Shown: piece by piece, positions 9,388 through 30,085 of the stretch | How positions within the stretch are numbered: the first letter of the stretch is position 1 | Layout: the number at the start of each line of letters is the position of its first letter | Source: Sarea resinae | Taxonomy: Eukaryota | Direction: 5' to 3' | Length of the DNA stretch: 64,000 nucleotides | Assembly: GCA_026026165.1 (NCBI GenBank) | Contig: JAPEUD010000027.1 | Span: forward strand, 62,001-126,000 | The notes under the pieces: model-generated | Seen by the model: only the letters and a program-made list of their open reading frames with translations | Told to the model about the DNA's origin: nothing | The model's database searches: none | Translations under genes and position numbers: made by a program

Positions 9388-9928
9388 TGTTAGAATTATA
9401 ACCTTAATTCTAGTTACTCTTAAGTATCTAGACTGTTATAGAATGTTATATAATAGTATAGATATATTTAGAAGCTTCTATAAACCTATAGAAGCTAATA
9501 AAACTCTATAGAATCTTATAAAACATTCTAGAAGATTCTATAGCTATACTAACTAAGTATTACTATATGCTAACTAAGTATTACTATATGCTAATTAAGT
9601 ATTTAGAACCTTTTAAAACCCTTAAAAATGTTTTAGAACTATTTAGAAGTCTATAGAATCTCTTAGATATCTATAGAACTCTATTATATAAGGGTTATAC
9701 AACTATCTCCTAACTTTCTTACAAAGCATATATTATTATCAGCCTATTACTTACAAATCACTTATATAATTAGTTATTACTAGAAGTTTCTAGTAAGACA
9801 GTTAAGTCTATATTTTAACTGCCTTACACCTCTATAGCTAGAATCTCTAAGTTTATAATATATAATCATTCTATATAATACTTCTTTAGCACCTTCCTCT
9901 ACTTATAACTTTGTGCTACCTTCTAACA
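9388..9928 (+). repeat. Copia 5' LTR (541 bp)
   Basis: Direct repeat of 30086-30588 with inverted termini TGTTAGAA/TTCTAACA. Carries a 21-bp triplication at ~9545-9605. Confidence 0.95.
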
Positions 9929-9940
9929 GGTTATAAGCCT
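9929..9940 (+). promoter_or_regulatory. Copia primer-binding site
   Basis: GGTTATAAGCCT directly after the LTR, a RIP form of the GGTTATG(A/G)GCCC copia-type PBS. Confidence 0.7.
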
Positions 9941-11019
9941 TAATAGCCTGCTAAAGAAGCCTATAATTTTGTGGGTTTCACCTATAGCCACTAAAATTCC
10001 TTTGAAAAAGAGTAGAACTTCCTCTTTTTCACCTAAAAAGACTAGGTCCTATAGTCTTTATAGTCCCTAGGCAGTTATATAGCCTCCTAGAGGTTATATA
10101 ACTTAACTTACAGATAAGAACCACTTAGAGTAGACTGCTTAAACTAAGCCTATACTTATAGATATTAGGTATACACACACTTAATAAGGATTTTTCTAAT
10201 CCTTTGTGCTGCCTTATAGGTATAATCCTCTCTGAAGAGAAACACCTATAGGAGAGCAAGTTAATTGCTTAATGTATGCTGCCTTTACCTAGATCCTATA
10301 GTACCTATAGCTTGTGTCTATAGAACTATAGTATAGCAGCTTGTGTTCTGCACACCTTAGCAGCTTGTGTTCTGCAAACAGCCTTTGTGCTGCAATTTTA
10401 CGCACCTATAGAACTGTAACAGTTTAAAAGTCACAAAACAGCCTTTGTGCTAATCTTTTATGCATCTATAGAACTTATAACAGTGGTGCAAAAGCATAAG
10501 ACACTCTTTATACAGCTATTCTACACATCTATAGAACTTATAAGTTCTATAGGTGTATAAAAGTCATACTAGTGTGATTCTACTACTTAGAGTAGAATAC
10601 ATATAACAGCTACATCAGCAAAAAGGGAGGTGTGCTACAGGTGACTACAGGTGCGCTGTGTAACCCACGTTACCCACGTTACAAACAGTCAACGCTGTAG
10701 CGCTACATGTACAGTAGTTCAGGTAGCAGCTACTGTAGTACTACATAGAATACACTGACTTTGTATATCTTCTACACAACATATTAGTGTCAACTACATG
10801 ACTATTCTTTTACCTACTAGTAGACTACAGTAGATTCTAGTAGTTATACTTACTAATCTCTAGAGATTAGATAAAATACATGTAGACACCTACTGTATTA
10901 CTAATGAATACAGAATACACGTGTATTTTAGTAGCTACTACATAGCACAGATAACTTATTACATAGAGTCTACACAGTGCGAAAAATAGTGTTAATTATA
11001 CAGCGAATCTACTAACTAG

Positions 11020-13319
11020 GAGAATAGGTTAGTTAGTTGACAATAATGTAAACTATTAATATACTACCTAGCATCTGCTCTAGCTAATTAGGTTTGTAAT
11101 TTGACTTGTTCTTTAGGTGATAGGCCTAGATCCTCTAGATCCTCTCCTCTATTATTGCAGAACCTTTCTGTTAGAACGTGGACTTTTCTAGGAGTCAAAG
11201 TATTGCTATTGTTAATAGCTTTCTTTATTAGTAGAAGGATAGCCTCTTACTACTAACTGCTTAGAAAATTCTATGTAGCTACCTAGCGCTAGTAGACCTC
11301 TAGGTGTTTGTTAGCTGTTATGTTATTTGTTAGCTGTTATATCTAGCTAGTTACTTACTACTTGCGCTGTCTCTAGTGAAATCTTAAGAAGTAAAGCTCT
11401 CTTCTTTCTATTTAGAGAGAGTGTAATAGAGTGCAGTAGATACAATGCATATTAGCTAATAGGTGATCTGTTTAAAAGCATCTAATGTATAACTAACATT
11501 TGCTAGTTTCTAGACCTTGTTAAAGAACTCTTTAAGTATAACACATATAATTACTAGGTAGAATAATCTCTCTTTCTTTCTCTAAAAACTGTTAGATAAC
11601 TAAAACAAGTAGAGAGATTTATATATAGATAGATATATCTTAATAGTTAAAACTATCTTAATCTAGTAGTCAACTTACTTTCCTCTTAAGTCGTTCTAGT
11701 TTAGTGAGAGGCAGATTGTATAGGTCTACTACTAGTTAATAACACTGTAATATAATATATCCTTGTTGCTAGCTTATTCTAATTAATAGCTAATAAGATT
11801 TGATTATTTAGAGTTAGTAGGTAGATAGTAGAAATGTCACCTAATAGTCTTACTTACTATAGGTTTAATATATACAGGCAGCTCTATTTTGTATTATCTA
11901 GAGTCCTTAATAAGATAAGGAAATTAATACTCTATCTTAATCACCTTTGCCTTTATATAAGCCTAGTCCTATATGTTAGCACAGATAGTAGCTATACTAT
12001 CGCTTTTTAGGAAAGGGTTCTAAGTAATAACATATATTTTTATTATTGCCTTAGCTATTAGATAAATATCCTAATGCTTATAGCGCAGATAGCACTCTTT
12101 TAAATGCGCTTAAATCTTTACATATGCTCTTATATCTAGTGTAAGAAGCTAACTTAAACCTGCACTCTAATTATTTGTAAATGTCTATAGGGTGCTAGAC
12201 AATTAGTGTAGCGTTCTTAGTACGTCTATCTCGTTAAAAACATGTGTAGAGGTAGAGTCTAAGTTAATGCTAACTGCTCTAGAATAAGGACTAGAGAATA
12301 AGAGTCCTTTGTTATTGCTTAGAACCTATTATCTATAAGCAAAATCAAAAACAAGTACTCTAAGAGCAAGACTTGCTAATAACAGTAGAGGTAGTATTAA
12401 CAATTTGTTCTAGAAAGTGTCTGTTAACAGATCCTGCATGTAAAGCTCTTCTAGCAGTTGTCTGTTAAAAAGGTTAGGCTTCTAAAGGATATCTCTTTAG
12501 TTAGTTTGTTTTGCTGCCTTCTAACTAGTAGTAGACCTATGTATAGGACGTCTGTCTGTTAGAAGATCTTAGAATCTTATAGGTGATTCTCTTACAGTTT
12601 GATTTGCCTTACTACTTATTTGTTGCTGTTCTACTAAGTACAAGGTAGCCTAGGTGTTATTAGATATATATTGTCTGCTTGTTAGTGTACTCTCTTTGCA
12701 ATTAACTAAGTTCACTTTAATGTGATTTAGCCTAAGGCTTGTTATTTGTCTTCTTATTGCATAAAGACGCTCTTATTTATTCAGATTCTTTCTAGGCAGA
12801 TAATTGCGCCTAGATACTTCTTTGTCTGTTAGTGTACTTATCTAGCTATTAGGAGTCGCTAGTATAAGTTGACTTTCTAGACTCTTAGTGCTGTCTAACT
12901 AATATCCTCTTCTCTAAGTAGGTGTATTCTATGTTATTAGATTAAGTGAATTATCACTATCTTCTGCGTTTTTAGCAGCAGATACAGCGCTAACGTTAGA
13001 TAACTAACTAGGTAGGCTTTGTGTTAGAGACATTGTAGCTTGCTTATAATTCTCTTTATCGCTATCTAATAACATCAGCTATAGTTGCTCTTAGACTAGA
13101 GGAGTAGTAGTAGCAATCACTAGATCTAAACTATGTTTAGTCCTTTAGTAGTAGTCTTTTATTAAGTGCAAGTATTGCAGAAGGCAACTGCTTTGTTTAG
13201 CATAGATTAGATAAGTAGAGATAGAAACAAGCGTTACTATTAGTAAAGTAGTTGAGTTTTTATTCCTTAGCAGACTAAACATCTTGCTAGGAATAAGTCT
13301 AGAGTTGTTTAGGAGGCAT
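11020..13319 (-). pseudogene. Cargo gene: low-complexity N-terminus plus DUF6532-like C-terminal domain, with introns
   Basis: ATG at 13319 (MPPK..). De-RIP motifs 'YVITQNPFP.......ICADIWDQAC' (~11950-12030), 'VVDLYNL......LLDQD.FNY.D', 'LFHPVII.VI..EFF...DAF..I...LICIVSTALYH.LSEWKEG.F...DF' (~11375-11570). GTAAGT introns present. Confidence 0.55.
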
Positions 13320-13849
13320 TGTAAAAGTTACTAGCTTCTCTATATAGAGCAGATTTAGATAGCTAGGAGTTTAGTGCATAAGAGACATTAGCATTAAATA
13401 GGAATTTAAAGAGAGAGAGAATTATTAGTCTAAGTAGAGATAAGCATTGTCACTTAAATTACATCTTTGCAAATTAACAGACAATTATGTCGCTGTTAGG
13501 ACAACTTATGTGATTAATTTAGATTTATACATGCTTAGACTAATTAAAACAACACTAAACAGAACGAAAGAGACTAACTTAAAGTAGATTAGCAGATGTT
13601 AGCTTCTATACCTTGTTAAAGTCATCTAGAAGACACTTATAGTTTAGAACCAACTATTGCTGCGATCCTTACTAGGCTGCTAGAACAGAGTATAGTAGAA
13701 GAGTAGGTGATAACAGTCCTAAGAGCAGCAGACATGTATGTCTGCTGCTCTTAGTATTATAAAGTCGCCTATAATCAAATAAAAACTTATGTCAGCTGTG
13801 TTTGTTACACGTCCTATTTGTCTTTGTCTCCTTTGTATATTGTAGGGTT

Positions 13850-16160
13850 AATAGTAGGGGTTGTTATCTTTAGTATCTATATTATCTTCACTACTAATCT
13901 TAACTTTAACTTGCAGCAGAACTAGCAGATTGTTCTTCTTTAGAGCTGCGTTATTTAGGATACCTCTTAACCTCTAGGTAGCTATAAGTGTATTCTTAAT
14001 TGCAGACTTAGTGTTAATAAATCGATACAAACTCACCTCGCTGCGCTAGCTAATGCAGTGAACCTTATTAAGTGCCTATTGCTTAGAGGTGTCTATATAA
14101 TCAGGTTTAAAGACGACTGCTAGATTCGCGCGAATTAAGGTTAAGCCTAGTGACATTGTGCCTATTGTCCTAACTAAGTAAAAAGGTTCTAAGCTAGAGA
14201 ACATATCTATAGTGCCTTAGAATCGTTCTACTAACCTTAAGCGCTCTGCTATAGAGATTCCGCTATAGAATAGAGCAACTAGCTTGCATCTAATATATTT
14301 TATCCACTGTATATCTGCTGTTAGCCTAAGTGTGTTATCTAGTAGACAAATGCCACTTACTATTGCAATAATAAAGGCTGTGATTAGGAATACAGTAAAG
14401 ATAACTATCTTTTCACTCTCTATCCTTAAATTCACTCCTATATTATTAATAAGATTATCTAGTACTTTTAATTTAGAGGATAACTAGCTAAGCATTTCTA
14501 GATTGTTATACAACAGACATAATTCCTAATCCTTAGTGGCTATAGACCTAACGCTTAATAAGCTTTAGTCTAACCTAGCTAGATTAGGGTAGGCAAGGCC
14601 TAGGAATAAAGAGATAATTTGTAGTCGCTATGCGTATTAGAAATATATTATTAAAGTGATGCGTTATCCTTTGTTTAACTCTAGAATTTAGTTTGTTCTT
14701 GCTACTGTAATAGCTTACTGTTGTTTGTATGCTGTCTTCTAGCAGTTATTGCTAAACTAGACTGACAATTTATATCTGTAGAATAGCAGGAGGTTAATTA
14801 GCAGGTAGCTGTCTAGGTTGACTGCATTTTTATCCTGTTAGATTATTAGCACGCTAAGGAAGCTAACAAAATTCTAGGCATATTAATTAAAGTCTTTATT
14901 AGTAGAAGGCAGTCGCAGTCTGTTAGGTTTTGCTATGCAATTAAATAGATTTTTGTACTGACTTTTAATAAAGTCTAACTTTTTAGGCAAGCATTTTTGT
15001 CTAACGTAAGAGGGATTAGTTGTCTATTAGGTATATATAAGAATGTTTACCTTCTCTCTTAAGTCTCTAGGCACAATAAACAGAGTGCTAGAGAGAAACC
15101 ACATTATAGGCTAGTGTTCCTTATAGCTTTGTCTTAAGGTAGTTAGGTCTTAGATTAGGTTAGTGTTCTTTGATTTAATAATGTGCGCCTTATCTACTAC
15201 TATCTGCTGAAATTAAGTTTCTGCCTACAAATTGCAGCGAAGTCGCAAACACTTAAACAATATCACTAGGATAACATTTAATCTCACGTGTTTGCTACTA
15301 GAGTCTGTTTCTATTAAGTCTGCAAACTTGTGTTCCTATTAGCTGTGCTTAAGAACTATTAGGTTCTTAGCAATCTATTATGCAGTGAACGACTTTTAGT
15401 ATTCTGTCACCTACATGCAGGTGAGATATACTAGGCATATAACTATATTCGCTCCTCTATCTACAGTGATTTAGGAGGTTATAGATCCTAGTTAACATAG
15501 GCATTGTATCTTATAGAGGTTGTCACTAGGACACTTAACGCTGCATTTAGTATTGTTATCTATATTGTCTAATAAACACAAGTGTAAGTAAAATGTTATA
15601 TAATATTTAAAGTCTTATGCAGATAATACCTACTACTAGCCCTTAGATATCTTCTGTTATAGATTCGCTAACTCTTTATTATGTCTAAGTGATTATAGTA
15701 TAAGGTCTGCAAAGTAGCAATAAGAGCTAACGTTATTAGTGTCTGCTAGTAGATTAAGCGTTAGCTATTAATTTAAGTACATATTAAAGAGACACTATAG
15801 CAGACACGCACCTTTCTAAACCCTATCCTATTTGCTAAAAACCCCTCTCTAATTCCGTTGCTTTTGTTGCGTAATATAAACATAATAGCTGTAGCTTAAT
15901 GCAGTAGTAGTTAAATAGGTGCTTAAAGGAACAGTAGCTTTATAGGTATTTAGGTTGTTAATGCAGTGTGTTTAGGAATAAGGAACATAGCTGCTATATC
16001 CTTCTACATTTAGAGTGTGTTGTGTTAAATTGCTAGACTATTTTAAATAACTGTTTAGCGTTTCGCTATCACTAGGTTCGTTCTCTTAATCAGGTTATCT
16101 ACCCTCTCTAATTCGTTATACTATCTGCTAGCAAAAGCACTAAGGTCCTAGAGGCCTACA
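13850..16160 (-). pseudogene. Cargo gene: SNF2-family helicase/ATPase core
   Basis: De-RIP motifs in the correct order: 'LLPHQATAIMFM..E.NGIRGGFLADGMGFGK|T' (intron donor at 15811), 'CPS...QCPC' insert, 'IVICP.HL..MW..E', 'IVVDEAH' (15183-15203), 'WFLSGTP' (~15081-15101), 'EKMVIFT.FP' (ORF 14217-14435), 'GLNL..A..VVFEPDY....QQAL.KVHRIGQ' (~14045-14150). Confidence 0.85.
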
Positions 16161-16248
16161 AAGTAAGGACAAAAGTCAGTAGAGGTTGTCACCTATTATC
16201 CTAGTACTTACTAGGCAGACAATGTTCTGTGCTATATAGATAATTGTC

Positions 16249-16385
16249 AGGTAGCAGATTATTATATAGAGTATTATTAGGTGGCAGATTATTATATAGA
16301 GTATTGTTAGGTAGCGGATTGTTATTTAGAGGATTATTAGGTGGCGGATCGTTATTTAGAGGATTATTAGGCGGCAGATCATTGT
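16249..16385. repeat. 30-bp tandem repeat, about 4.5 copies (10-aa DPPPDD-like unit on the minus strand)
   Basis: AGGTRGCRGATYRTTAT... recurs every 30 bp. Confidence 0.85.
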
Positions 16386-16876
16386 TTTTAACAGGTAGAT
16401 AATCCTTGTCATCGACGTTATCTTTGTTGCTATTATTGTTATTAACGTTATCTTTGTTATTATCTTTGTCCTTAATATCCTCTTTATTAGCATCCTTGCT
16501 ATTAACGTCTTCTTTATCAGCCTTATCTCTTGTTAGGTTATATGCAAGCTTATTAGAAATGTCATCTTTAATTTGCAGTGATAGGTCTATAAGGAGTTAG
16601 CTCTGTAGTAACAAGGAATAGTACTGCGTTTAAGTCTAGCAGCTTACGCTTAACGTTATAGCGACCTAGCTTAGGAACTAGTGACAGACGTTGCGTTTCC
16701 TTCAGCTAATATAGTGATAACTTAGGTGTGCTACTAGACTGACTAACGCCTGCTGCAAGGCCTAGCAACTAACCCTTTAGTAGGTGTTAGCTAGTCTTAG
16801 TAGTAGAGAGTAAGGTTGTATTTAGTGTTATTAGCGAATAGCCTTGTCCTAGATCTATAACTAGCAATTTATTTGT

Positions 16877-17000
16877 AGACAAGCCTAGCAACTAACTCTT
16901 AGACAAGCCTAGCAACTAACTATTAGACGAGCTTAGCAACTAACTATTAGACAAGCCTAGCAACTAACTCTTAGATAAGCCTAGCAACTAACTCTTAGAC
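16877..17000. repeat. 24-bp tandem repeat, 5 copies, flanked by a ~110-bp direct duplication (~16720-16830 and ~17035-17145)
   Basis: AGACAAGCCTAGCAACTAACT(C/A)TT units start at 16877, 16901, 16925, 16949 and 16973. Confidence 0.9.
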
Positions 17001-17756
17001 AGTCGTTAAGTTTTCTATAGCAGAGGCGACAACGACTTAGGTGTGCTACTAGACTAGCTAACACTTGCTGCAAGGCCTAACAACTAACTCTTTAGTAGGC
17101 GTTAGCTAGTCTTAGTAGTAGAGAGTGAGGTAGTATTTAGTGTTGTTGCATTTAGGTTTGCATAATGTGTCTCTAGTTAGATAATTAAACAGTCTGTTGC
17201 ACTAGACAGTTAACAACTGTATTAGGACTAGACATAATACCTTATAGCAGACAGTGCATATACCTAGTCTAGGTCTTATCTGTATAGAAACTAAGTCATT
17301 ACTAGCCTGCTTAAGGTTTCTGCGTTTTACATCCTATATAAGGTTAACAACTAGAAATTAATGTACTCCTATAAGGAGACACTTACAACATAGAATACAA
17401 TTAGTTGTAGGCCTAACTTAAGTACTAGTACAACCTCTTTATTGTATTCTAATCTGATTCTCTCTCTCTCTATATCTGTCTTAATCTTGTTAATAATCGC
17501 TGCTTATAGGATAAACCTAGCAATAATATTACAGATACTATCTATAGTTAGAGATAACAGTAGGAAAAGTCAGGTGCTTATCTTGTTATCTATTGTTATA
17601 TACTATTTAGCTAGTCAGTTGTCTATTAACTGTTAGTAAATGTTAGTTAATAGATAAACGTATATACCTCTTACCTATTAGTAGTCTTATAGGAGGAGGT
17701 GCTGTGTAGATAGTTAGTAGATAAGAAGGTATTAGTGTACAGAGAGTGGCAAGGCT

Positions 17757-18265
17757 ACTAGGCAGAAGGGCATTAGAGTCAGATTAATTGTCTGTTAGCT
17801 GTTAGCAAGTGCTATTCGATCGATATAATTAGATGTCTCCTACTTATAGGTGTCCTTATAAGCCGCTAAACAGTCTAGTTAGTGGCTTTATACTAAGAAG
17901 AAGCTAGCGTACAGATAGTACCTGCTAGAGGACTACTAGGTAGAAGGGCATTAGAGTCAGATTAATTGTCTATTAGTTGTTAGCAAGTGCTATTCAATCG
18001 ATATAATTAGATGTCTCCTACTTGTAAGTGTCTTTATAAGCTGCTAAACAGTCTAGTTAGTGGCTTTATACTAAGAAGAAGCTAGCGTACAGATAGTACC
18101 CGCTAGAGAACTACTAGGCAGAAGGGTATTAGAGTTATATTAAATGTCTATCAGCTGTTAGCAAGTGCTATTCAATCAATATAATTATATGTCTCTTACT
18201 TATAGATGTCTCTACAAGCTGCTGCAATGTCTGTTTAGTGGCTTTCTACTAAGAGAGAGCTAGCT
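17757..18265. repeat. 178-bp tandem repeat, about 3 copies (exon plus intron unit)
   Basis: ACTAGG(C/T)AGAAGGG starts at 17757, 17935 and 18113. Confidence 0.92.
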
Positions 18266-19959
18266 AGCAAGAGGTAGCTAAAGTACTAGAGGCGTTAGAT
18301 AGAGGTAACAGCAGGGTTCTACTTTTAGATTGCAGTTCTTTCTTCACGTTGTCTTACAGCTTCTTACAGATATCTTGCACGATAATAAATAGGTGTTCCT
18401 AATTGTAGCTCTATCTAGCAGCTTGTCTTCTGATTTAGTCTGCAGACAGCATTAGAAAGTTAGCAGACTGTATCACGTCCTCTATTATAGTGTTGACTGT
18501 ATAATTTCCCGCTGCTTAAAGGTTAGTGCAGCTATAGTCAGATAATACTTGCTAGATAGCCCCTTGTAATCTAGTCTTAGCTTTGTTCGACGTAACACCT
18601 AGATTTAGGTACGCTTCTAATAGCCTCTCTTTTATAAGTTCTTATACTTAAGGATTAGGTCTTACAACTGTCTCTTGTTCTAGTTAATAAACTGCATCCT
18701 ATTATATCTCTTGTTAGTCACGTCTGTTGTATAACAAGAGAGTAGCTTACTTAGCTAGATCGTTATAATATGTTAAGAGGCAGAGAGATAACTAGCAAAG
18801 AGAATAAGTAGGAAGTGATTAAGGCTAAGAGTATAGCACTAAACTTAAGTTTAGTATAATAAGAATAATTAGGCTGCTAGACTAAGAGAGATATAACAAG
18901 CTAAAAGATAATAACATAAGAGAACACAAGTAGAGAGCTAATAAGGCTAGAGATAAAGTTAATATCTTAATAGAACGATTATCTGAATTAGTAACAAAGT
19001 AAGGTTATATCTAGTAGGAATTCTTAATTAGGCTAGACTAGGTGGTAGGGGTTTTATAGCTTTAATATTAGATGAATAACGCGTTAGCGCAGCGCAAGGT
19101 GAATAAGAGTAGCAGCAGCAAATAAGAGTAGCAGAAGTGAATAGAGATATAAGGTGAATAGAGATCTAACTAAACAGAACAAAGAATAATAACATTGTAA
19201 CGCGCAAGAAAGAAGACAAAGAAACGTTGCTATTGTCGACTGTTTCTAGCTATTAGCACTTGATGCTATTAGTATATCTAGTGCGCAATATTGCACCTCT
19301 AACTAATATTATATCTGATATACAATATATTATATAGATAATAGTTTGCTTGTGTTTTAGACAGCTATTAGTGTAGGAGTAAGGTTAAAGCAATATAAAT
19401 AGCAGCACTGCTTGTATAGTGTCTACTTAATAATAAAAGTCTAATAGTTAGTCTACTACTTAAGTAAACTGTCTGCTAATATAATGTTAAGATAGAGTCT
19501 TATAATAGAGTATTGACTGTAGTATATCTAGCATTTTAATATTAAACAAAGAGGTAGAGCAAGAATAGTAGAGTAACACTGCATATAAAATCTGCATTTT
19601 AGCTAATAGCTGCTACATGCGTGCAACACACATTAGAGGCACTACCTTATATTATGCAACAGATAAGCAGTGTACTAGGTAGTTAGGTAGGTAAGGTACT
19701 GTAGTAGATACAGTACCTACCTAGGTATATCTTAGACTACAATGTAGTAGGTAGTTGCAGTCTACTTAGATTTGTATAGCTACTGTATAATAGCATACTA
19801 AGAGATATACAAATATACTTAAGAGTACCTTACTGTAATATCGTGCTATAGTAGTCCTTAACAATAGACTAGAGTACGTAGTACTATATAGGAGCAGATT
19901 AATAACTAATACAATTAGTAGATTATCTTGTTTGCATACAAATTAAGTCTAGTTTATCA

Positions 19960-21715
19960 CTAAATTCATCTATGTCTTTAGCTAAGGCAGGTCTTTAAAT
20001 CACTTAAACGCTAATTAGAGTAGCTAACCTGCTATACAAAGCTAATCAGACATTTAGACTAGTGTATAGTGTTATCTATTAGTCGACTTTTGTTATATAG
20101 ATAACATAATAGACCTAAAACAGACACTAATATATAGTTTACACAACAGAACGTTATGTGACTACCTCTAGAGAAGGTGCAGTAGACAATTAGGTTTCTT
20201 TGCTAAGGACTAGAGAAAGCTTCTGCTAAACGCCTACTGTCTTGCTGTAGTTACATGTTATAGAGATGCTTTTATTATCACGCTAGACACGCTTATTGTA
20301 ATTAATCAAACTATCTAATGCGCGATAATAAGAGCGCTCTTTTAGTCCTTCTAGTATGCTGTATTTGTCTGTGTATATAATCTTATTAGCAAGGCAGATA
20401 GGAATTTCGTCTAATACATAACAACAGTTATCTCTTAGTGATATCTAATAGACATGTATAGTATATCTACTTACTACTACTTAGGTAGCAAGATAATAGC
20501 CTCTTCTAAGGCAGACTACTTTTGCTTGCATGTTTAGAGCTAGTAACAAAAGGTACTTAGTAGGATAGGAGTCCTGCGTTGTTAGTTCAGGTCTAATCCT
20601 ACAATTAAGTGATATACTATCTGCTTGCTCTTCTTCTAAATCGTAAATTTCTGCAATCTGTTTGTTTGTTAGGTTTTGTGCAGACATATATCTCTTTAGA
20701 GATGCTAGACAATGACAATTAGTAGACAATTGTCTCTTAGGTAAAGATAGTCTAGTTATCTAGACATATGTTATTAAATAGTTATAGTGTTGTGTTATAG
20801 GCTACACTCACGATTTTTAAACGTATAGTTTCTTCTAGAAAAAGTTCGAAGGCAGACTCTAGCTCACTATTATATTTAATCTAAAACGTCTAGTAGTTAA
20901 CGTCTAAGTCTATCTAAACTATCTTATAGCTAGGTATATAGCGTCTAACGACTTGTCAGATAGATTCTATTAAAGGGGATAGAAGAGAGTGTATCTAGGA
21001 TTTAAAGGCGTTCTCTCTATAGTATATATCCTAGATAACATAACGTTTAACTATCTAGTATATAAGGATATAGACATTAAATAGGTATTAGATGTTACTT
21101 ACTAGTTAGAGTCTTTATGCTAGAAGTTGATATTTCTACCGCGCTAGTAGATAGTAGTGTACTACTATTATCTTTGCCTTCTCTATCATTATTATTAGTT
21201 GTGTCACTGTCTGCTGTAAGAGGACTGCGTTCTCTCTTCTCTTAATCTCACTCCTTTTTACAACAATCTTAGATAACAACGTATAAGTATTCCTAATAGT
21301 CTGCCTATCCTTAAGGTCGTTGTCTAAAGTAATCTGCTAGGGCTAAAGAGAAGTCTACCTGCTAGATTATATCTCTAATCAAATTATTAACTTGTTTAGC
21401 CTCTGCTTAAACAGTGTTATATATCTTATGCTGACTCGCGATGCGTTTCACGCAACGTTGCAATGCTGCCTTGCTTTTATTTGTTAGATTAAGAGTATAA
21501 TATGCGTCTGACAGCTAATAATAAGACAATTGTTTAGATCGCCTAGACAGTTAGTTTAAGGGACTAGAGAGTAGACAATAAAGGCTACTAGCAGTTAGCT
21601 AACAAGGTGCTTTTCTCTACTAAGTCTCTCTAGTTAGTGAGGTGCTAATCTTATAGAATCAGGTGTACTATATAGGTCTGCTAGAGTTTGTGCTTTTTCT
21701 AGGTGAGAGCGACAT
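19960..21715 (-). pseudogene. Cargo gene of unknown function, divergent from the transposase
   Basis: ATG at 21715 (MSLSPRKS..) opens a long frame broken only by RIP-type stops. GTAAGT (~21100) and GTGAGT (~20810) donors. Includes ORF 20481-20729. The 3' end is approximate. Confidence 0.5.
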
Positions 21716-21859
21716 AATAATTGTGCTTAGGAAGTCCTATCCTAATATAAGCTTAACACAAAGGTATATGTTAATTAACATATGTGTAGAAATAGAAATC
21801 ACTGCCTTATCTACCTACATTAGTATAAACGTATAGGTTGCCTATATACTAACACTAAT

Positions 21860-24800
21860 GTCACCTAACTAACAACTTAGTCACTCTTTAGACTTTTAAA
21901 CTCGCCTCTATAAATATAATGTGCAAAGCAATCACCTACACTATTATATGCATAGCAACAACTACTAGAGGATATTGCAATGTTAAAATGCTATATATAT
22001 AGTTATAATACAACGCACCCTCTATAGTTGACTTTATATATAAGACGCTGCGATCTACTATTGTTTAAGAAACGCAACAGACACTAAGGCAAAACAGCAG
22101 ATATTAGCTCTACAATTAACAACAACACTAACAGCTACATTAACTACAACATTCTAGCAGATATCTATAGCAGGACAGATATCGACTACGCTAAAGATCA
22201 ACTAGATTATAATAGTAGTTAGTTGTTAGATAGAGTGGCTTATAAGACTACGCTATATATACAATCGCTAGCAAAGCTTATAGCTATCTAGTTAATAGCT
22301 TATTTATTAGCAGGCGAACTATATAAATTGCCTAATCAATCGAATAAAAGACACAATATATACCTTAGTCAATCTTAGGCGCTGTTTAATACTGCTAAAG
22401 ACTACAGACTAGCGCAGTAGTTTCTACAGAACAACATTACCTTAACTGCAATTAATAAGTTCTTTAATAACAACATTATAGGATAAGACTGCTCTAGTTT
22501 CTAATCTGTATATACTCTGCGTCAAAAATTAGACAGGATATTAACTATGCCTAGAACGCTAGGTAGAGAATAGGAAGAAATATCTTTCTTAGGGTATTAT
22601 AATAAGAAGATACAAATGTATCTTAAAGATCTCTTAAGATGTATTTTGTTTCTACTTAGACACCTACAGTTTAAAGAGGCGCTTATATATTTGCCTGTGA
22701 AATTGTATAGGGAACAGAATACTTAACTATACTTAGATATACATACTAGGAATTAGTAGTAGCAGACTTAGGTATACAAATCACACTTATCTAGTATTAG
22801 ATATAGTGCTAACTGTCTACTAGGATACACTGCCTGAAAACTCGACACTAGTCCTAGTAATCTATGCGTCTAATAAAACTTATCTGACTAATTTCTTAGG
22901 CGACAAGCATATGTAGCTAATATATCTTATAATTAGTAACTTGCTAAGCACGCTTTAAGCTAAACCTTTATTGCAAGCGACTATCCTCTTAGGTCTTCTA
23001 CTAGTTTATCTAAAGCAAATCAAAGCGAATAATATTTAAGAGCAGAATTATTATTATTAACTATACTACAATAGACTAGATCAGGCCCTTTAGACACTTA
23101 GAAAGCTAGGAGAGGATAGTATACAGATACTATACACAGATAGTTATACCTAGAATTGTTTTCTATAGCTTGCTAGGTAGGTAGCTAACTATAAAGAGGT
23201 TGTTGCAATATGCAGTATTATATAAGGCTACTATCTAGTATATAAATGTCTATAGGCTGACCTTAGTTGTTGTCTAGAAGATAATAACTAGATAGCAAGA
23301 GACTTAGCAAACTACTAGCAACTTCTAAAGGAGGGCAACATACAAACGCTAGAGCAGAAAGGTGTTAGAAAGACACTTAATAGCCTCTAGTTTCTGCTAG
23401 GTGTTAACATCTACAATCTGCTAAAACTAGATCTACTGTATTAAGTTTATATAGGTATACTACAGCACTTTCTAAACTAGCTAGCAGCATTCCTACTTCT
23501 ACACAAACAACTAGACACTTTTAACTCTCTATAGACTGCAATGCTAGCGTATCTAATTTTTAGTCTGCTAACTAAGACCTATCTCTAGATATTATAGTAG
23601 TAAGAGAAGGAAATGCAGAATGTAGTGAAATTCCTAGTCCCTATTACAGCTATATTATTAGCGAATCTATCTGTATAATAGCACTAGGATTTTAAGCAAG
23701 CAATAACATATATATAGTCCTTTATTGACTTTATCTTCTTTGCATAACTGCATACTTATAACAACAAAACCCTTAAGTGTATAGACCTTCTACTAGGTGT
23801 CTTCTATAAACACAAAGCTATTTTCTAGAGATTTTGTGCTAATAAAGGAACAGTAGCTATAGCGCGCTTAGCATCCTAAACAGCATGTGCTGCAGCGTTG
23901 CAAAGAGCTTTGCAAAGAGCTTCTTAGCTAACAGCTAATAGAAAGCAAAAGCAGAAACACAGTGCACATTCTAATAAGGGTTAGAGAAGAGAAGACAGTA
24001 TATAGTAGGCAGAGGATTGTGTAAGAGAAGAGGCTCTAAAAGCAGGTGCATATTTTAACTTCTCTAAGATGCATATTATTAGTCACTATATATCTATAAT
24101 CAGATAATTTAGGTCTCTTTACAGCTTCTCTACTAACTGTTTAGAGGCTCTCTACTAAACAACAGTAAAGTTAGGCTAGTAAGCATTAAATTATTAATAT
24201 ACTACTCTATAGATATTGAAATACTATGACTAACGTTTCTATTTTAAGGCGCGTGAGATAGCTGTAGAGAGGCTGTTATCTCTTAATATAGTACAGACAT
24301 TAAATACTAGATTGCCTATCCTTAAAGGTTTTAACAGATATCTATTGCGATTATTAGAACAAATTATGAAACTAGGTCTACTAGACTTTATAATCGCCTT
24401 GCTAACGTTTATTAAAACGTTGTTTAGCAAACACAGTCAGCTAAATATTAACTAGCAGATGTTAAACTTATATGTAAGTAGCTAGCTTATAGACAGAGTA
24501 TCTTCTACAATGTGTTTCTAAGAGGCAAATAACAACTATAAAGATGTGTTAGAGTTAACTATCTAATGTACAACATTGTAGCAGAGTGTAGGTAGGAGAA
24601 ACAATTAGGTTTAGGTGAAAGACAATGTATACTATCTAGAGAGACATAGCACAGCTAACAGATAGGCGCTAGTTAGCACCTATTTGTTAGCTTAATATTA
24701 ATTTCTATTTAGTCTTACTATGCTAGGGTTTGCTCTAATATCACTAGCTTTAATCACTTAGGTATAAGCTAAACAACTAGAGAGTTAGGACATAATACAT

Positions 24801-24985
24801 TGTCTACCTATTGTTAAAAGGTTAGACAACATAGCTGCTTATAGTAAAGGCTGTCTAATAACTAACAAGGAGTGTATTATACGCGTTAAAGATATAATAG
24901 GGCTAAGTTATGTAATTAAGATACTTTCTAACAGCTTAGATTGTAAAGAACGTTTCCTAGTAAACAAATATATTGACTAAGAAAC
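21860..24985 (+). pseudogene. Plavaka transposase
   Basis: De-RIP reading: 'PWAPFDT..DYRLAQWF', 'YLKDPL.CI.FLL.HP.FK..L.Y.P....RLYSDMHTGNWWWQTQ', intron 22772-22823, 'DTLPENSTLVPVICASDETHLTNFSGDKHMWPIYLTIGNLP...R.KP', 'PDLLHQV..G', 'FNFPKMHIISHY..MI..FGSL..FSTD.SEALH...VK.GW.ASN' (~24054-24190). Start and end are approximate. Confidence 0.9.
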
Positions 24986-25372
24986 ATACTTTACTAAATA
25001 GATTTTAGAAGTTAACAGAAGTTCTAGTGTAGCTTATATAGCTTATATAGCTTGTGTAGTACAAAATCAACTGCCTAATATCACATAGCTGTTAGTAGAC
25101 ACTGTGTAGTACAGATAGTATGTACAAGTTCTACAGAGATATTATAACAAGTATCTACTATATATAACCTAATAATAAGTACATAGAAGACAATGTATAT
25201 CTATATAGAGATGTATTTACCTTTATATCTACTAGTAGACAAGTATATATACTATAATATTGCTATATAACGCTGTAGATATACTATAGCACTACTATCT
25301 ACATAGAACTAGTACTATATACTATGTATCTACACTATATCTACATAGACCTCTTCTCTTTTTGCTAATATA

Positions 25373-28300
25373 TATTAGGCTTGCCCTAGCAGATAGCCTA
25401 CTATTACAGACTAGGTATCACACTAATCTATAAAAATTGTAGGCTAGTCTGTAAAATCTCTATAAATCTAAGGGATTTAATTCTAAATTCCTAATCTATA
25501 AAGAGTTGTTTAATACAACTCTTAAAAAATGCAAGGATCTAGAGGACTATATTATAAGAATCAAGCAGCTAAATAATAAGCTAAGGGCTAGAGACCTAAT
25601 TCTGCCTAATAAGTTTATAGCTGTATAGACTCTAAACAACCTTACTAGTAACTATAATAATATAGTTACTATTATCACACAAATAATAAATAAAAGCAAA
25701 GATAAGGATATTAACCTAGAGGAAATCTTTGTATAGCTAATAGATAACTCTAAGAGGTTTAGAATTTCTAAGAGAACTAGCACTAGTAATAATAGTCATA
25801 ACACTAGCAAGGATATAGAGGTAGCTCTTACCTCTAAGAGTAAAAAGCACTGTGATAATTGTAGACTAAATAATTACAATAAGTCTATATGCTTTTAAAA
25901 GCATTCTAGCCTAAAAAGGAGTAAAAAGCCTAATGCTAAAAAGCATAGGGCTAACCCCTCTACAGCAGAGGAATCACAAGAGGAAAAGAGCTTTATAGCT
26001 ACAAGCTCTAATTCCTATAGCTGCTCTAAATCAGTGTTAAAACGCACTGTTACAAGCTTAAACTCCTATAGCTGTCCTAAATCAGTGTTAGAATGCACTG
26101 TTACAAGCACAGTCCTAGAAGGTACTGCTATAAAGCTATAAAAAAGCACTGATACACCTAAAGCTTTCTATAGCTATATAAAATCTGAGTCTAACAGCAC
26201 TGCTACAGAGTGGATTCTTAACTCAGGTGCAACAACATATATCTACTATAGAAAGGAACTCTTTAACAACCTTAGACCCTATAACACTACTATAAAGTAG
26301 AGTAACACTAGTAGTTCTACTATAGCAATAGGTATAGAGGATATTAAGCTAATATTTACTCTAACAAATTAAGTAGTAAATATTAGAGATATTCTATATA
26401 TCTCTAACTCTAGTATAAACCTGCTATCCCTAGGGGCAATTATAAATAAGGGCTATAAAGTTAACTTTAGCTCTAAAAATGTCCTTATCCTAGATAATAG
26501 AGGTAGTATCACTGCTAAAGAGACTTATACTAATAAGCTTAGTGTCTTTTAGACTAAGGCTATACCTATAGTGCTAAATAGCACTATAGAGGATATTAGT
26601 CTAGATATATAGTATAAAAGGCTAGGATATATAGAGAAAAGCACTCTAAAAAGGCTATAGAACAATGTAGAGCTTAGTGTTAAGTCTAAAGACTTAGATA
26701 TTAAAGATTACACTATCTGCTTAGAGGCTAAATTTACTAGATATACTAGTAGAACCCTTATAGAAAAGCCTAAGGAATACCTTAAAATTATATGCAGTAA
26801 TATAGAGAGTCTTATAAAACCTCTAACACCTAGTAGTAATAAATACTATATTACTTTCCTAGATCTAGCTATAAAATACCTTAATATTTACCTTCTAAAA
26901 TATTAAAGTAAAACCTTTAGCAAATTTAAAGAATATATTGCTAAAGAGAAAAATTAAAGCCTAAAAAAGCTAAAAAGATTTCACTTAGATAATGCTAAGG
27001 TCTATAATAACACTATATTTAAGGAATTTCATGCTAAAAAGGCATTATAGACTCTTATAATACACCTTATACCTTAAAACAAAATAGCCTAGCAGAAAGG
27101 ATTAATAGGACCTTACTTAATTAAGTAAAAGCCCTATTAAATCAGGCTAATATCCCTAAAAAATGCTTAGAGAAAGCTATTCTAGCTGCTATATACCTCT
27201 ATAATAGGACCTCTAATAGCTCTATAGGCTATAAAACACTCTATAAGCTAAGGTTTAATAAAAAGCCTAACCTAGACTACATAAAATCTAGGGTTCTCTA
27301 GCCTATAAGAGAGAGCCTAAAGAACTAATTAAAAAATTAGATAATAGAGCTAAGCCCTATTACCTAATCAACTATAGCTTAAATCAATACAAGCTGCTAG
27401 ACCTAAAGACAGCTAAAACAATCTAGGCTAGAGATGTTAGGATTATAGAGAACACATTCTATAATTCTACAGAAGGCTATACCTCTGACCTAGAGGCTCT
27501 AGAGGAGCTAGAGAAGGACACATCTAATCTAGAGGATAAGAATCCTATAGGTTTTGAAAATTCACCTCCTACACCTGTTGTAACAGCATAGGAAGAACCT
27601 GTAACAGTAGAAGATCAAAGTTCTATAGGTGATGACAATTTAGGCACACCTGATATAATAGACACTAATAGTGAATCTGATATAGATAAGCTAAGCAGTG
27701 AATATTATGCAAATATAGCTAGCACCTCTAAGCAGTAACAACACTATACAAACTTTATACAAAACTTTATAGTTTGTAACAGTCTGTATACAAGGAGGAA
27801 TCACACTGTTACAGACACCTATAGAAGTCCTATAGATGTGTCTGATCCTAAGAGCTATAGAGAAGCTCTAAAGTCACTCTATAAAGAGGAGTGGCTAGAA
27901 TCAATGCAGAAGGAGCTTACTAAGCTAAAAGAGCTAGGAGTCCTAAAGCTAGTTCCTAGACCTAAAAATGCTAATATAATTAATAGCAGGTAGGTCTATA
28001 AAACAAAGCTAAACCCTAATAATACAACATCAGCAAAAATGTAAATTGCTTTATATACCTATAGTGTTACAACATGAGATTCTATAGTAACAGCATGATA
28101 CTCTTATTTACTATGTATTTTTATAGTGCTACTATATAGCTTTATGTTGCTGTATGTTGTAAAGTGATACTCTATAGACATTTGCTAAATTGCTTATATA
28201 AGCGAAAAATTAAGCGAAAAATAAGCGAAAATAGCTCTAGTGCTATAGGCATTAACGCTAAGACTTCCTAAATAGGAAATTATAAGAATTCATAAAAATT

Positions 28301-29990: not shown

Positions 29991-30085
29991 AAAATTATGC
30001 ACCTACAGCAACTGTTATAAAAAGCAAAGTTTGATAGGAGTTCTAAATTGCATACCTATCCTATAGAATTAAGCTTAAGAGAGTG

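What the first reader, a model, noticed from the sequence alone, without database searches (positions are those of the whole stretch)
10613..25370. 14.8-kb cargo-carrying Plavaka transposon with defined TIRs and 2-bp TSD: transposase + SNF2 ATPase + DUF6532-like + unknown gene
Seen: both ends are exact. CATCAGCAAAAA at 10613 and its RIP-altered inverse ending at 25370 are flanked by TA/TA, and Copia gag continues on either side, so the whole segment inserted as one unit. It contains a Plavaka transposase (+) and at least three intron-containing genes (-). Known: Plavaka transposases are described mainly from basidiomycetes, often near TET/JBP genes, and are related to CACTA/EnSpm transposases. 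Inference: this is a multi-gene ascomycete Plavaka family with its own chromatin-related accessory module. I do not recall a description of this architecture, and RIP hides it from normal annotation.
Basis: partly seen in the sequence, partly recalled or inferred. Interest (0 to 1): 0.88.

Follow-up and report, generated by a model that had tools for sequence, protein, structure and literature searches.

The report
RIP-killed giant Plavaka transposon carrying SNF2
A 14.8-kb jumping-DNA element of the Plavaka type, now mutated to death by the fungus's own repeat-mutation defence, sits inside a Copia retrotransposon and carries a chromatin-remodeller-like (SNF2) gene beside its transposase, a cargo not reported for this transposon group in the papers I could search.

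Summary
The observation largely holds. Window 10613-25370 is bounded by an 18-nt inverted repeat. Its four mismatches are all RIP-type transitions, and the pattern occurs only at the two ends (expected 0.07). TA flanks both ends.

The termini (CATCA...) and 2-bp duplication match the published PlavakaB signature (PMC12730594). A Plavaka transposase hit (PF18759, E=1.5e-18) lies on the + strand.

On the - strand there is a degraded SNF2-family ATPase. Pfam misses it. It was found through four relatives from a 1.84-billion-protein search, and a profile built from relatives gives E=3e-22. A DUF6532-like stretch scores just below Pfam's cut-off, and a further stretch at 18.5-21.1 kb is stop-depleted but unidentified.

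The element sits between the LTRs of a Copia element. The right flank is Copia gag-pol; gag on the left flank was not shown, and no empty site was seen.

In one public run, summed contig depth is about 10-22 times the ~425 of two zero-mismatch contigs in every bin inside the element. This suggests the cargo belongs to the repeated unit.

Giant Plavaka elements with accessory genes are already known (24.4 kb in Gymnopus; red algae). This is therefore a new variant of a known kind, dead in this copy. Interest is moderate.

The parts
10613..25370 (+). Whole PlavakaB-type DNA transposon copy (14,758 bp), RIP-degraded
   Evidence: The TIR pair occurs only at these ends. Summed depth in run X1 is even and multi-copy across the element.
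10611..10612 (.). Left copy of the 2-bp target-site duplication (TA)
   Evidence: Read directly from the sequence. It matches the 2-3 bp duplications of PlavakaB (PMC12730594).
25371..25372 (.). Right copy of the 2-bp target-site duplication (TA)
   Evidence: Read directly from the sequence.
10613..10630 (+). Left terminal inverted repeat, CATCAGCAAAAAGGGAGG
   Evidence: Its first 11 nt are identical to the printed 5' end of Plavaka-11_AB in Table S1 of PMC12730594.
25353..25370 (-). Right terminal inverted repeat, RIP-altered (TATTAGCAAAAAGAGAAG on the - strand)
   Evidence: It agrees with the left repeat at 14 of 18 positions, and the 4 differences are all C>T or G>A.
22092..24989 (+). Plavaka DDE transposase pseudogene: one reading frame of 966 codons with 71 stops. 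The Pfam-matched core is 22830-23474.
   Evidence: PF18759, E=1.5e-18, 67.6 bits, profile positions 105-322 of 325. Stop count. The extent beyond the Pfam core is judged by eye from the translation.
13932..15910 (-). SNF2-family ATPase pseudogene (both helicase lobes). A low-complexity N-terminal region probably reaches about 16596.
   Evidence: phmmer against 1.84 billion proteins gave 4 hits, of which 3 carry SNF2-rel_dom. tblastn of P0001 residues 1045-1444 aligns to 15206-13965, E=1.5e-10. A profile of 5 relatives gives 15215-13932 at E=3.2e-22, 15560-15387 at E=1.5e-4 and 15910-15641 at E=0.03, all colinear. The 13932-15215 piece has 22 stops in 428 codons.
11200..13327 (-). DUF6532-like pseudogene frame (709 codons, 52 stops). 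The Pfam-matched part is 11357-11554.
   Evidence: PF20149, E=1.9e-4, 21.9 bits, below the 24-bit cut-off (E=0.0038 when the whole frame was scanned). This frame is depleted of stops, 13-14 against a median of 25-26 per 750 nt. Stop count.
18488..21112 (-). Unidentified, formerly coding-looking region in two - strand frames
   Evidence: Stop depletion: 13-17 stops in the best - frame at 18.5-20.0 kb against window medians of 24-26, and 14-16 at 20.0-21.1 kb against 23-25. No Pfam hit and no PDB sequence hit.
16876..18264 (.). Internal non-coding tandem repeats: 24 bp x 5.2 at 16876-17001, and 178 bp x 2.9 at 17755-18264 (blastn extends this to 17619)
   Evidence: One X1 contig lacks 336 bp (16831>17168).
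9384..9936 (+). 5' LTR of the host Copia retrotransposon
   Evidence: blastn direct repeat with 30082-30594, 86% over 557 nt. TGTTAG...CTAACA ends seen.
25373..30081 (+). Host Copia gag-pol (RIP-degraded), continuing directly after the insertion
   Evidence: Retrotran_gag_2 E=1.5e-8 (nt 25383-25757), Pol_BBD E=6.4e-12, SH3_retrovirus E=8.8e-11, RVT_2 E=3.8e-31.
30082..30594 (+). 3' LTR of the host Copia retrotransposon

Best explanation
Window 10613-25370 is one dead copy of a roughly 14.8-kb autonomous cut-and-paste DNA transposon of the PlavakaB lineage. This lineage belongs to the CMCT clade, related to EnSpm/CACTA and Transib/RAG1.

Shown:
- It inserted at a TA in the 5' part of a Copia LTR retrotransposon, about 680 bp after the 5' LTR and 10 nt before the recognisable gag domain.
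- The mobile unit consists of an 18-nt CATCAGCAAAA... inverted repeat at each end, a DDE transposase gene near the right end (+ strand), and - strand genes.
- The - strand genes are an SNF2-family ATPase of a sparse Pezizomycotina-type subfamily, a DUF6532-like gene, and at least one further unidentified coding region. Tandem repeats lie between them.

Inferred:
- The transposase bound the terminal and subterminal repeats, excised the whole unit, and reinserted it with a 2-bp staggered cut.
- The depth profile suggests roughly 10-20 copy equivalents in the genome. RIP then riddled the copies with C>T and G>A changes: 71 stops in the transposase frame here.
- Because all parts of the element show the same summed contig depth in run X1, the SNF2 and DUF6532-like genes were carried along in most or all transpositions.

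Speculative (about 30%):
- The SNF2 ATPase served the element, for example by opening chromatin at donor or target sites or by counteracting silencing.
- This would parallel the TET/JBP dioxygenase of Agaricales PlavakaB and the methylase/SET/2OG cassette of red-algal Plavaka.
For: - Ends: the RIP-tolerant TIR pattern is found only at 10613 and 25370, with 0.07 hits expected. TA lies on both sides.
- These features equal the published PlavakaB definition, CATCA..TGATG with 2-3 bp duplications (PMC12730594, passages).
- The first 11 nt equal the printed terminus of Plavaka-11_AB (supplement Table S1).
- Transposase: PF18759, E=1.5e-18.
- SNF2: 4 hits at E<=1e-3 among 1.84 billion proteins, 3 of them with SNF2-rel_dom.
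- SNF2: tblastn E=1.5e-10.
- SNF2: a profile of relatives gives three colinear - strand pieces, the best at E=3.2e-22. The match includes the subfamily's Cys cluster and its EPDY-type motif (KPDY in the window).
- Whole-unit repetition: in run X1 all 24 bins inside the element have summed depth 4154-9517, against about 425 for the two listed contigs with zero mismatches. There is no step between the cargo and transposase regions. The Copia flanks reach 28,679-85,898.
- Of the places that differ in X1, 804 of 829 are transitions. This count covers the whole laid stretch 9000-27000, including the Copia flanks.
- Nesting: an LTR pair and Copia gag-pol domains directly to the right.
- RIP: indices.
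Against: - The tool itself warns that summed contig depth is not a copy number. Individual copies could not be inspected, so truncated or cargo-less copies cannot be excluded.
- No empty-site Copia contig (joint 10612>25373) was listed.
- The left flank has no gag Pfam hit.
- SNF2 gives no Pfam or PDB hit directly. Its best relative is only 24% identical.
- DUF6532 is below Pfam's gathering score.
- Seven metagenome loci hold SNF2 relatives. In the two I scanned (L002 and L005, 24 ORFs of at least 120 aa), no Plavaka gene was found. A tblastx of the element against all seven loci matched the helicase-C part in L001-L003, plus three weak short hits in the SNF2 gene region in L005 and L007 (E 4e-4 to 4e-3). 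One locus type lies among ordinary host genes. The SNF2 subfamily is therefore not exclusively Plavaka-borne.
- The catalytic D/D/E and the C(2)C and H(3-4)H motifs could only be guessed by eye under RIP.
Confidence: 0.8

Rival explanations
1. Passenger capture. The element is a Plavaka transposon, but the SNF2, DUF6532-like and unidentified genes are host genes picked up once by an ancestor of this family. They were amplified passively and have no role in transposition or silencing escape.
For: - Relatives of the SNF2 gene occur outside any detectable Plavaka context. In L005 the neighbours are WD40-cyclophilin, SnoaL and amidohydrolase genes. L002 has no Plavaka ORF.
- The named relatives are single 'hypothetical proteins' in Chaenotheca, Sclerophora and Rhynchosporium, each in a cluster of one member.
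Against: - Cargo of about 11 kb was retained in what looks like 10-20 copy equivalents with even depth.
- The retained genes are of chromatin-related type, like the accessory genes of other Plavaka lineages.
- Neither point is decisive.
Confidence: 0.35
2. Composite element. A shorter Plavaka element received a nested insertion of a different mobile element that brought the SNF2 and DUF6532-like genes. The composite then amplified, or only this copy is composite.
For: - The cargo lies on the opposite strand from the transposase.
- Blocks of tandem repeats at 16.9-18.3 kb separate the modules.
- Depth varies about 2.3-fold between bins.
Against: - No internal LTRs or strong TIR pairs delimit the cargo. 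Self-blastn found only tandem repeats.
- Of the 25 longest inverted repeats shown, 24 are 70-83% complementary. The only perfect pair (19 nt, 11720/12522) lies inside the DUF6532-like frame and has no TE-like flanks.
- Six-frame Pfam found no second transposase, integrase or recombinase inside.
- Depth shows no step at any putative internal border.
Confidence: 0.1
3. Chance ends. The inverted repeat and TA flanks are coincidental in AT-rich RIPed DNA. The interval would then be a patchwork of unrelated degraded repeats, one of which is a Plavaka transposase fragment.
For: - TA is the commonest dinucleotide class in RIPed DNA, so TA/TA alone is weak evidence.
- No empty site was seen.
Against: - The 18-nt pattern occurs only at the two ends, with 0.07 expected and 0 of 100 shuffles reaching 2 hits.
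- It begins with the published PlavakaB terminal motif.
- The ends coincide exactly with the interruption of a Copia element between its LTRs.
- They also coincide with the bins where depth drops from Copia level to element level.
Confidence: 0.02

Closest known systems
PlavakaB families of Agaricomycotina (for example Plavaka-11_AB of Agaricus bisporus and PlavakaB-1_GyCo of Gymnopus confluens; Kojima 2025, PMC12730594)
   Same: [quoted passage not shown]
- The transposase matches PF18759.
- The first 11 nt of the terminus are identical to Plavaka-11_AB as printed in Table S1.
- The element is large: 9.9 kb and 24.4 kb are listed there.
- It carries genes besides the transposase.
   Different: - The host is a RIP-active, presumably Pezizomycotina, fungus. 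The paper reconstructs Plavaka from Agaricomycotina only (passage).
- No TET/JBP gene is detectable here: none in Pfam, and no colinear cluster of PE-type motifs in a low-power regex scan.
- Instead the cargo is an SNF2-family ATPase and a DUF6532-like gene.
- Transposase phylogeny was not tested.
Giant Plavaka elements of red algae (Bostrychia moritziana, 17.4-19.1 kb, accessory genes PAG1-3; bioRxiv 10.1101/2025.02.11.637652)
   Same: - Both are Plavaka-lineage transposase elements well above 10 kb.
- Both carry a cassette of several accessory genes of chromatin or DNA-modification type.
- Both have tandem repeat arrays inside the element (passages).
   Different: - The accessory genes differ: an N6-adenine methylase plus SET, and ParB plus a 2OG oxygenase there, against an SNF2 ATPase and a DUF6532-like gene here.
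- The host kingdom differs.
- No homology between the two cargos was found or tested.
Plavaka elements of Tuber (Chinese white truffle genome, PMC12581995)
   Same: - It is an ascomycete host.
- The element belongs to the Plavaka group of CMC/CACTA and makes 2-bp target duplications (passage).
   Different: - The TIR motif reported there is 5'-CATAC-3', not CATCA.
- No accessory genes are mentioned in the passage I read.
- The supplement figure was not seen.
EnSpm/CACTA two-gene transposons (maize En/Spm type)
   Same: - Both have a related DDE transposase within the CMCT clade.
- Termini start with CA.
- Subterminal short repeats are present.
- There is more than one element-encoded product.
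   Different: - CACTA termini and 3-bp duplications were not met here (CATCA and 2 bp).
- The transposase hits Plavaka and not the EnSpm Pfam families.
Starship giant cargo-carrying elements of Pezizomycotina (recalled, not read here)
   Same: They are large multi-gene mobile elements in RIP-prone ascomycete genomes.
   Different: - They move by a tyrosine-recombinase 'captain' (DUF3435).
- Six-frame Pfam found no such gene here.
- They are much larger.
- They lack the CATCA TIRs and TA duplication.

Membership tests
Plavaka (PlavakaB lineage, CMCT clade) | Transposase matching Pfam PF18759 above the gathering score | tested here: met
   67.6 bits against a cut-off of 26.3, E=1.5e-18, profile positions 105-322 of 325, nt 22830-23474 on the + strand, with stops read as X.
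Plavaka (PlavakaB lineage, CMCT clade) | Termini 5'-CATCA..TGATG-3' (PMC12730594) | tested here: met
   The left end is CATCAGC.... The right end on the + strand is ...GCTAATA, which is GCTGATG with two G>A changes. The pattern occurs only at these ends.
Plavaka (PlavakaB lineage, CMCT clade) | Target-site duplication of 2 or 3 bp | tested here: met
   TA at 10611-12 and at 25371-72; 3 bp does not fit. This is weak on its own because TA is very common in RIPed DNA.
Plavaka (PlavakaB lineage, CMCT clade) | [quoted passage not shown] | tested here: inconclusive
   There are 71 stops in 966 codons. Candidate remnants (ASNKT for SSDKT, YLVY for a CxxC) were judged by eye only and compared with recalled motifs. 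No alignment to intact references was possible: the word-based search with the RIPed query found nothing.
Plavaka (PlavakaB lineage, CMCT clade) | Placement of the transposase inside the PlavakaB clade in a CMCT phylogeny | not tested
   No intact reference transposases were available as tool-held sequences.
Snf2-family ATPases | Pfam SNF2-rel_dom (PF00176) and Helicase_C (PF00271) hits | tested here: not met
   0 hits with the RIPed translation, even at E<=10. 0 PDB sequence hits at E<=0.01.
Snf2-family ATPases | Significant homology to proteins that carry both Snf2 lobes, colinear over both lobes | tested here: met
   - phmmer gave 4 hits at E<=1e-3 among 1.84 billion proteins. Three of the four have SNF2-rel_dom and two also have Helicase_C.
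- tblastn of P0001 gave E=1.5e-10.
- A profile of 5 relatives gave pieces at E=3.2e-22, 1.5e-4 and 0.03, colinear over hmm positions 26-661 of 688.
Snf2-family ATPases | Intact Walker A (GxGKT) and DExH motifs | tested here: not met
   The window reads RIGFRK and DKAH where the relatives' consensus has GlGkT and DEfH. The changes are of RIP type, so the gene is a pseudogene.
DUF6532 (PF20149) | Pfam hit above the gathering score | tested here: not met
   21.9 bits against a cut-off of 24, E=1.9e-4, covering only profile positions 119-182 of 194. I therefore call it 'DUF6532-like' only. RIP damage may explain the shortfall.
TET/JBP-carrying Plavaka (TET+ PlavakaB) | A TET/JBP dioxygenase gene inside the TIRs | tested here: not met
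   There was no Tet_JBP Pfam hit in six frames. A RIP-tolerant regex for nine short PE-type motifs found no colinear cluster. Both tests have low power on RIPed DNA.
Copia LTR retrotransposon (host of the insertion) | LTR pair flanking gag, protease, integrase and RT in Copia order | tested here: met
   LTRs 86% identical over 557 nt. Retrotran_gag_2, Pol_BBD, SH3_retrovirus and RVT_2 occur in that order on the + strand. No rve hit, and no matching 5-bp duplication was found.
Starship | DUF3435 tyrosine-recombinase captain gene at one end | tested here: not met
   No such Pfam hit in six frames of 10613-25370 at E<=0.01.

The most novel reading that the evidence does not exclude
A PlavakaB lineage of Pezizomycotina carries its own Snf2-family chromatin remodeller, with a DUF6532-type partner and a further unknown protein, as a conserved and functional accessory module. 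The element would use this module to open chromatin or evade heterochromatic silencing during transposition. That would make chromatin remodelling, beside DNA demethylation (TET/JBP) and the red-algal methylase/SET cassette, a third independent counter-silencing toolkit recruited by Plavaka transposons.
Probability: 0.25. Interest if true: 0.7.

Novelty: new variant of a known kind. Interest (0 to 1): 0.45.

Why it matters
Plavaka elements keep turning up with chromatin- or DNA-modification genes on board: TET/JBP in mushrooms, and a methylase/SET/2OG cassette in red algae.

An ascomycete PlavakaB family that carries an SNF2-type ATPase would extend this pattern to ATP-dependent remodelling. 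It would give a concrete candidate for a transposon-encoded anti-silencing or target-access factor.

It also shows that RIP hides multi-gene DNA transposons from standard annotation. Pfam misses the SNF2 gene completely here. RIPed 'AT-isochores' may therefore hold unrecognised element architectures.

This copy is dead, and the other copies in the one run examined also differ by RIP-type transitions. The biology can be tested only on a de-RIPed consensus or on an intact relative in another species.

Tried and rejected
- Whole genome: none is held for this window. Genome-wide TIR-pair collection, a de-RIP consensus and an empty-site search could not be done.
- Pfam and PDB sequence searches on the SNF2 region translated with X at stops: 0 hits. 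The gene was recovered only through the exhaustive phmmer search.
- Word-indexed homologue searches with RIPed queries failed. The DUF6532-like frame gave 0 hits among 7998 scored candidates. The transposase frame gave 0 among 8000.
- The third homologue search, with the intact relative P0001, found only itself and one Rhynchosporium protein at E<=1e-10.
- Metagenome scan with the helicase-C fragment P0008: 7 loci.
- ORFs of at least 120 aa in L002 and L005 (24 ORFs) show SNF2 and Helicase_C and host-type genes but no Plavaka.
- tblastx of the element against all 7 loci matches the helicase-C part in L001-L003, plus three weak short hits in the SNF2 gene region in L005 and L007.
- tblastn of 10 selected L001-L003 ORFs against the window matched only the helicase-C part at E<0.1.
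- The genome search on those loci's records: not held.
- Runs X2 and X3 (same study as X1) hold next to none of the stretch. I draw no inference from that.
- Empty-site joint 10612>25373: not listed among the X1 joints. Contigs there are short, so this says nothing either way.
- TET/JBP hypothesis for the unknown region: no Pfam hit and no colinear motif cluster.
- PDB sequence searches of the two stop-depleted frames: 0 hits at E<=1.
Dropped.
- Earlier notes of this scan: nothing on this genome. Nothing by sequence. The 'Plavaka' notes all concern Naegleria and did not bear on this case.
- Iyer et al. 2014 (PNAS), the original Plavaka description, is not held. What I say about it comes from citations in other papers or from recall.
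- Region 1-9383 has no tblastx similarity to the Copia or to the element.

Full report
**1. The observation**

The sequence at the stated coordinates is as described.
- The left end reads CATCAGCAAAAAGGGAGG from 10613.
- The right end, read on the - strand from 25370, is TATTAGCAAAAAGAGAAG.
- The two ends agree at 14 of 18 positions. All four mismatches are C>T or G>A, the changes that repeat-induced point mutation (RIP) makes.
- A RIP-tolerant IUPAC pattern of these 18 nt, with up to 2 mismatches allowed, hits the 64-kb window only at these two places. Dinucleotide-preserving shuffles give a mean of 0.07 hits, and 0 of 100 shuffles reach two.
- TA precedes 10613 and follows 25370. A 3-bp duplication does not fit.
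- TA/TA alone is weak evidence in such AT-rich DNA.

RIP is clear. The element has TpA/ApT 1.72, (CpA+TpG)/(ApC+GpT) 0.72 and GC 0.336. The gene-rich part of the window (31-64 kb) has 0.66, 1.25 and 0.512.

**2. The host element**

Self-blastn shows a direct repeat, 9384-9936 against 30082-30594, 86% identical over 557 nt. Its ends are of the TGTTAG...CTAACA type.

Immediately right of the insertion, the + strand carries these domains in order:
- Retrotran_gag_2 (E=1.5e-8, starting 10 nt after the junction)
- Pol_BBD
- SH3_retrovirus
- RVT_2 (E=3.8e-31)

The element is therefore nested in a Copia retrotransposon.

- Region 9937-10612 gives no Pfam hit.
- It holds a 61-bp tandem repeat that varies among copies (joint 10373>10435).
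- By eye, the reading frame runs through the junction once the element and one TA are removed. This places the insertion at the very start of gag or in the 5' leader. I could not test it.
- I did not find a matching 5-bp duplication for the Copia.

**3. The transposase**

Six-frame translation with stops read as X gave one strong Pfam hit. It is Plavaka transposase PF18759, E=1.5e-18, 67.6 bits (cut-off 26.3), at nt 22830-23474 on the + strand. The same frame reads on from about 22.1 to 25.0 kb and holds 71 stops in 966 codons. No EnSpm, integrase or tyrosine-recombinase family was hit.

**4. The cargo**

*SNF2.* Pfam and PDB sequence searches with the RIPed translation found nothing. An exhaustive phmmer search of 1.84 billion representatives, using the 699-residue frame 13300-15398 (-), found 4 proteins at E<=1e-3, the best at 3.4e-7.
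- Three of the four carry SNF2-rel_dom, and two also carry Helicase_C.
- The two named ones are hypothetical proteins of Chaenotheca gracillima and Sclerophora amabilis. Chaenotheca gracillima is Pezizomycotina, class Coniocybomycetes; Sclerophora's lineage was not looked up.
- The only further relative of the best hit is from Rhynchosporium agropyri, in Leotiomycetes.
- tblastn of the best hit aligns its residues 1045-1444 to 15206-13965 (E=1.5e-10).

A local profile built from five relatives matches three colinear - strand pieces:
- 15910-15641 (E=0.03). This is motif I, interrupted by a 69-nt stretch that starts GTAAGA and ends TAG, so it looks like an intron.
- 15560-15387 (E=1.5e-4). This is a Cys cluster specific to the subfamily.
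- 15215-13932 (E=3.2e-22). This runs from motif II to the end of the helicase-C lobe and includes the subfamily's EPDY-type motif (KPDY in the window).

The Walker A and DExH positions read RIGFRK and DKAH, and there are 22 stops in 428 codons. It is an SNF2-family pseudogene of a sparse, divergent Pezizomycotina subfamily.

*DUF6532-like.* Frame 11200-13327 (-) gives PF20149 at E=1.9e-4 and 21.9 bits. This is under the 24-bit cut-off and covers only profile positions 119-182. The frame is clearly depleted of stops, with 13-14 per 750 nt against a median of 25-26. I call it DUF6532-like and do not file it as a member.

*Unknown.* The - strand frames between 18.5 and 21.1 kb show a similar depletion of stops, with 13-17 against window medians of 23-26. 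There is no Pfam or PDB sequence match. A low-power scan for PE-type TET/JBP motifs found no colinear cluster.

Between the SNF2 gene and this region lie tandem repeats of 24 bp x 5.2 and 178 bp x 2.9.

**5. One unit or a patchwork?**

No genome is held for this window. One public run, X1, holds 53% of the sampled words of the stretch.

I laid its contigs at 80% identity or more on 9000-27000, which placed 6891 pieces.
- The two listed contigs that match the window with zero mismatches have depth of about 425.
- The summed depth is 4154-9517 in all 24 bins inside the element, about 10-22 times that.
- There is no step between the DUF6532-like, SNF2, unknown and transposase regions.
- The Copia flanks lie at 28,679-85,898, and the drop falls in the two bins that hold the junctions.
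- 804 of 829 differing places are transitions. This count covers the whole laid stretch, Copia flanks included.

The tool warns that summed depth is not a copy number, and I could not inspect single copies. Even so, the simplest reading is a family of roughly 10-20 copies in which the cargo is as repeated as the transposase, later mutated by RIP.

Against a nested foreign element:
- There are no internal LTRs or convincing TIR pairs.
- There is no second transposase.

Against obligatory linkage of this SNF2 subfamily with Plavaka:
- Seven metagenome loci hold relatives.
- The two I scanned, L002 and L005 (24 ORFs of at least 120 aa), have no Plavaka gene.
- Across all seven loci, tblastx matched the helicase-C part, plus three weak short hits in the SNF2 gene region.
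- One locus type lies among ordinary host genes.

**6. Comparison with what is known**

Kojima 2025 (PMC12730594) is the closest work. I read passages from the main text and hits in the supplement zip.
- It defines PlavakaB by the termini 5'-CATCA..TGATG-3' and 2-3 bp duplications, and places Plavaka in a CMCT clade with EnSpm and Transib/RAG1.
- Its Table S1 prints a Plavaka-11_AB terminus whose first 11 nt equal those of this element.
- It lists PlavakaB consensus lengths of 9,895 and 24,396 nt, both with a PE-type TET/JBP gene.
- That paper reconstructs Plavaka from Agaricomycotina. In Ascomycota it reports TET-carrying Helitron and IS3EU only.

Other relevant work:
- Plavaka with 2-bp duplications, but CATAC termini, is reported in Tuber (PMC12581995, passage).
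- A red-algal preprint describes 17-19-kb Plavaka elements with three accessory genes. It states that in basidiomycetes only TET/JBP was known as a Plavaka accessory gene.
- Gene models that contain both chromatin-associated domains (including SNF2_N) and transposon-associated domains have been counted across eukaryotes (bioRxiv 10.1101/2021.11.30.470311, passage).

Literature searches:
- 'Plavaka': 20 papers hold the term, 16 listed.
- 'DUF6532': 1 paper.
- 'Kyakuja' + 'SNF2': 4 papers.
- 'EnSpm' + 'SNF2': 5 papers.
- Two broader queries.
- From the listings, and from passages read in 8 papers, I saw no description of a Plavaka or EnSpm element carrying an SNF2 gene.
- The library lacks most subscription journals and Iyer et al. 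2014.

**7. Verdict**

This is a real, precisely bounded, RIP-inactivated PlavakaB-type transposon nested in a Copia element. Its ends and duplication are textbook for the lineage as defined in 2025. Size and 'accessory genes' as such are not new.

The SNF2-family ATPase is new relative to the papers I could search, and so, less securely, are the DUF6532-like and unidentified genes. They appear to be part of the repeated unit in a Pezizomycotina-type genome.

Whether this cargo served the element or was a passenger is open. I give about 30% to a functional role. I rate it as a new variant of a known kind, with interest of about 0.45.

Noticed in passing
window 4001-9383: This block has much lower GC (0.20-0.25; TpA/ApT 1.67, (CpA+TpG)/(ApC+GpT) 0.28) than the Copia or the Plavaka element, so it is more heavily RIPed. 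It has no tblastx similarity to either. Its identity is unknown.
   Followed up: partly
window 9360-9387 and 30064-30085: About 28 nt upstream of the 5' LTR align with the stretch upstream of the 3' LTR (the polypurine-tract region). The 5 bp flanking the two LTRs do not match. The Copia may be part of a tandem or recombinant LTR arrangement, or the LTR borders may lie further out.
   Followed up: no
window 10373-10560: A ~61-bp tandem repeat (tatagaact...taaca units) lies in the Copia 5' region. One X1 contig skips one unit (10373>10435), so the unit number varies among copies.
   Followed up: no
window 16831-17168 and 17619-18264: Tandem repeat arrays lie inside the element (24 bp x 5.2; 178 bp x 2.9, not a multiple of 3). 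One X1 contig replaces 336 bp (16831>17168) with 23 other letters, so the arrays vary between copies. This is reminiscent of the repeat arrays next to accessory genes in red-algal Plavaka.
   Followed up: partly
window 11720-11738 and 12522-12540: A perfect 19-nt inverted repeat, 783 nt apart, lies inside the DUF6532-like frame. This is unusual in RIPed DNA. The flanks show no TE-like extension or duplication.
   Followed up: partly
window 10640-10760 and 25270-25350: Short subterminal motifs of the type CTACAG/CTGTAG recur in both orientations near the left end: CTACAGGTG twice, and ACCCACGTT x 2.2 at 10663-10682. RIP-altered look-alikes (CTACAT, CTGTAG) recur near the right end. These are possible transposase binding sites. 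Judged by eye only.
   Followed up: no
window 31239-63129: The AT-rich transposon island ends near 31 kb. Beyond it lie ordinary eukaryotic housekeeping genes: PP2A B56 subunit, TFIIIC Tau95, a protein kinase, SNW/SKIP, a mitochondrial carrier, a Utp12-type WD40 protein and a septin.
   Followed up: partly
L004-L007 (for example L005:6671-10617): In four metagenome loci, the relative of the SNF2 gene is a string of short ORFs (122-263 aa) followed by an AAA_11 helicase-like ORF. Its ORFs have no SNF2 Pfam hit in L005 (the only one of the four scanned with Pfam), next to a WD40-cyclophilin gene. It looks like a decayed gene conserved in arrangement across four assemblies.
   Followed up: partly
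window 15387-15560 (-) and relatives P0001, P0002, P0004, P0009, L002: This SNF2 subfamily has a Cys cluster (C..C.C) between motifs I and Ia. It also has an EPDY-type motif (EPDY in P0003, EPSY in P0004, KPDY in the window, PdY conserved in the profile of relatives) where typical Snf2 proteins have a D..WNP-type motif; that comparison is from recall. No Pfam family beyond the generic SNF2 domains describes it.
   Followed up: partly
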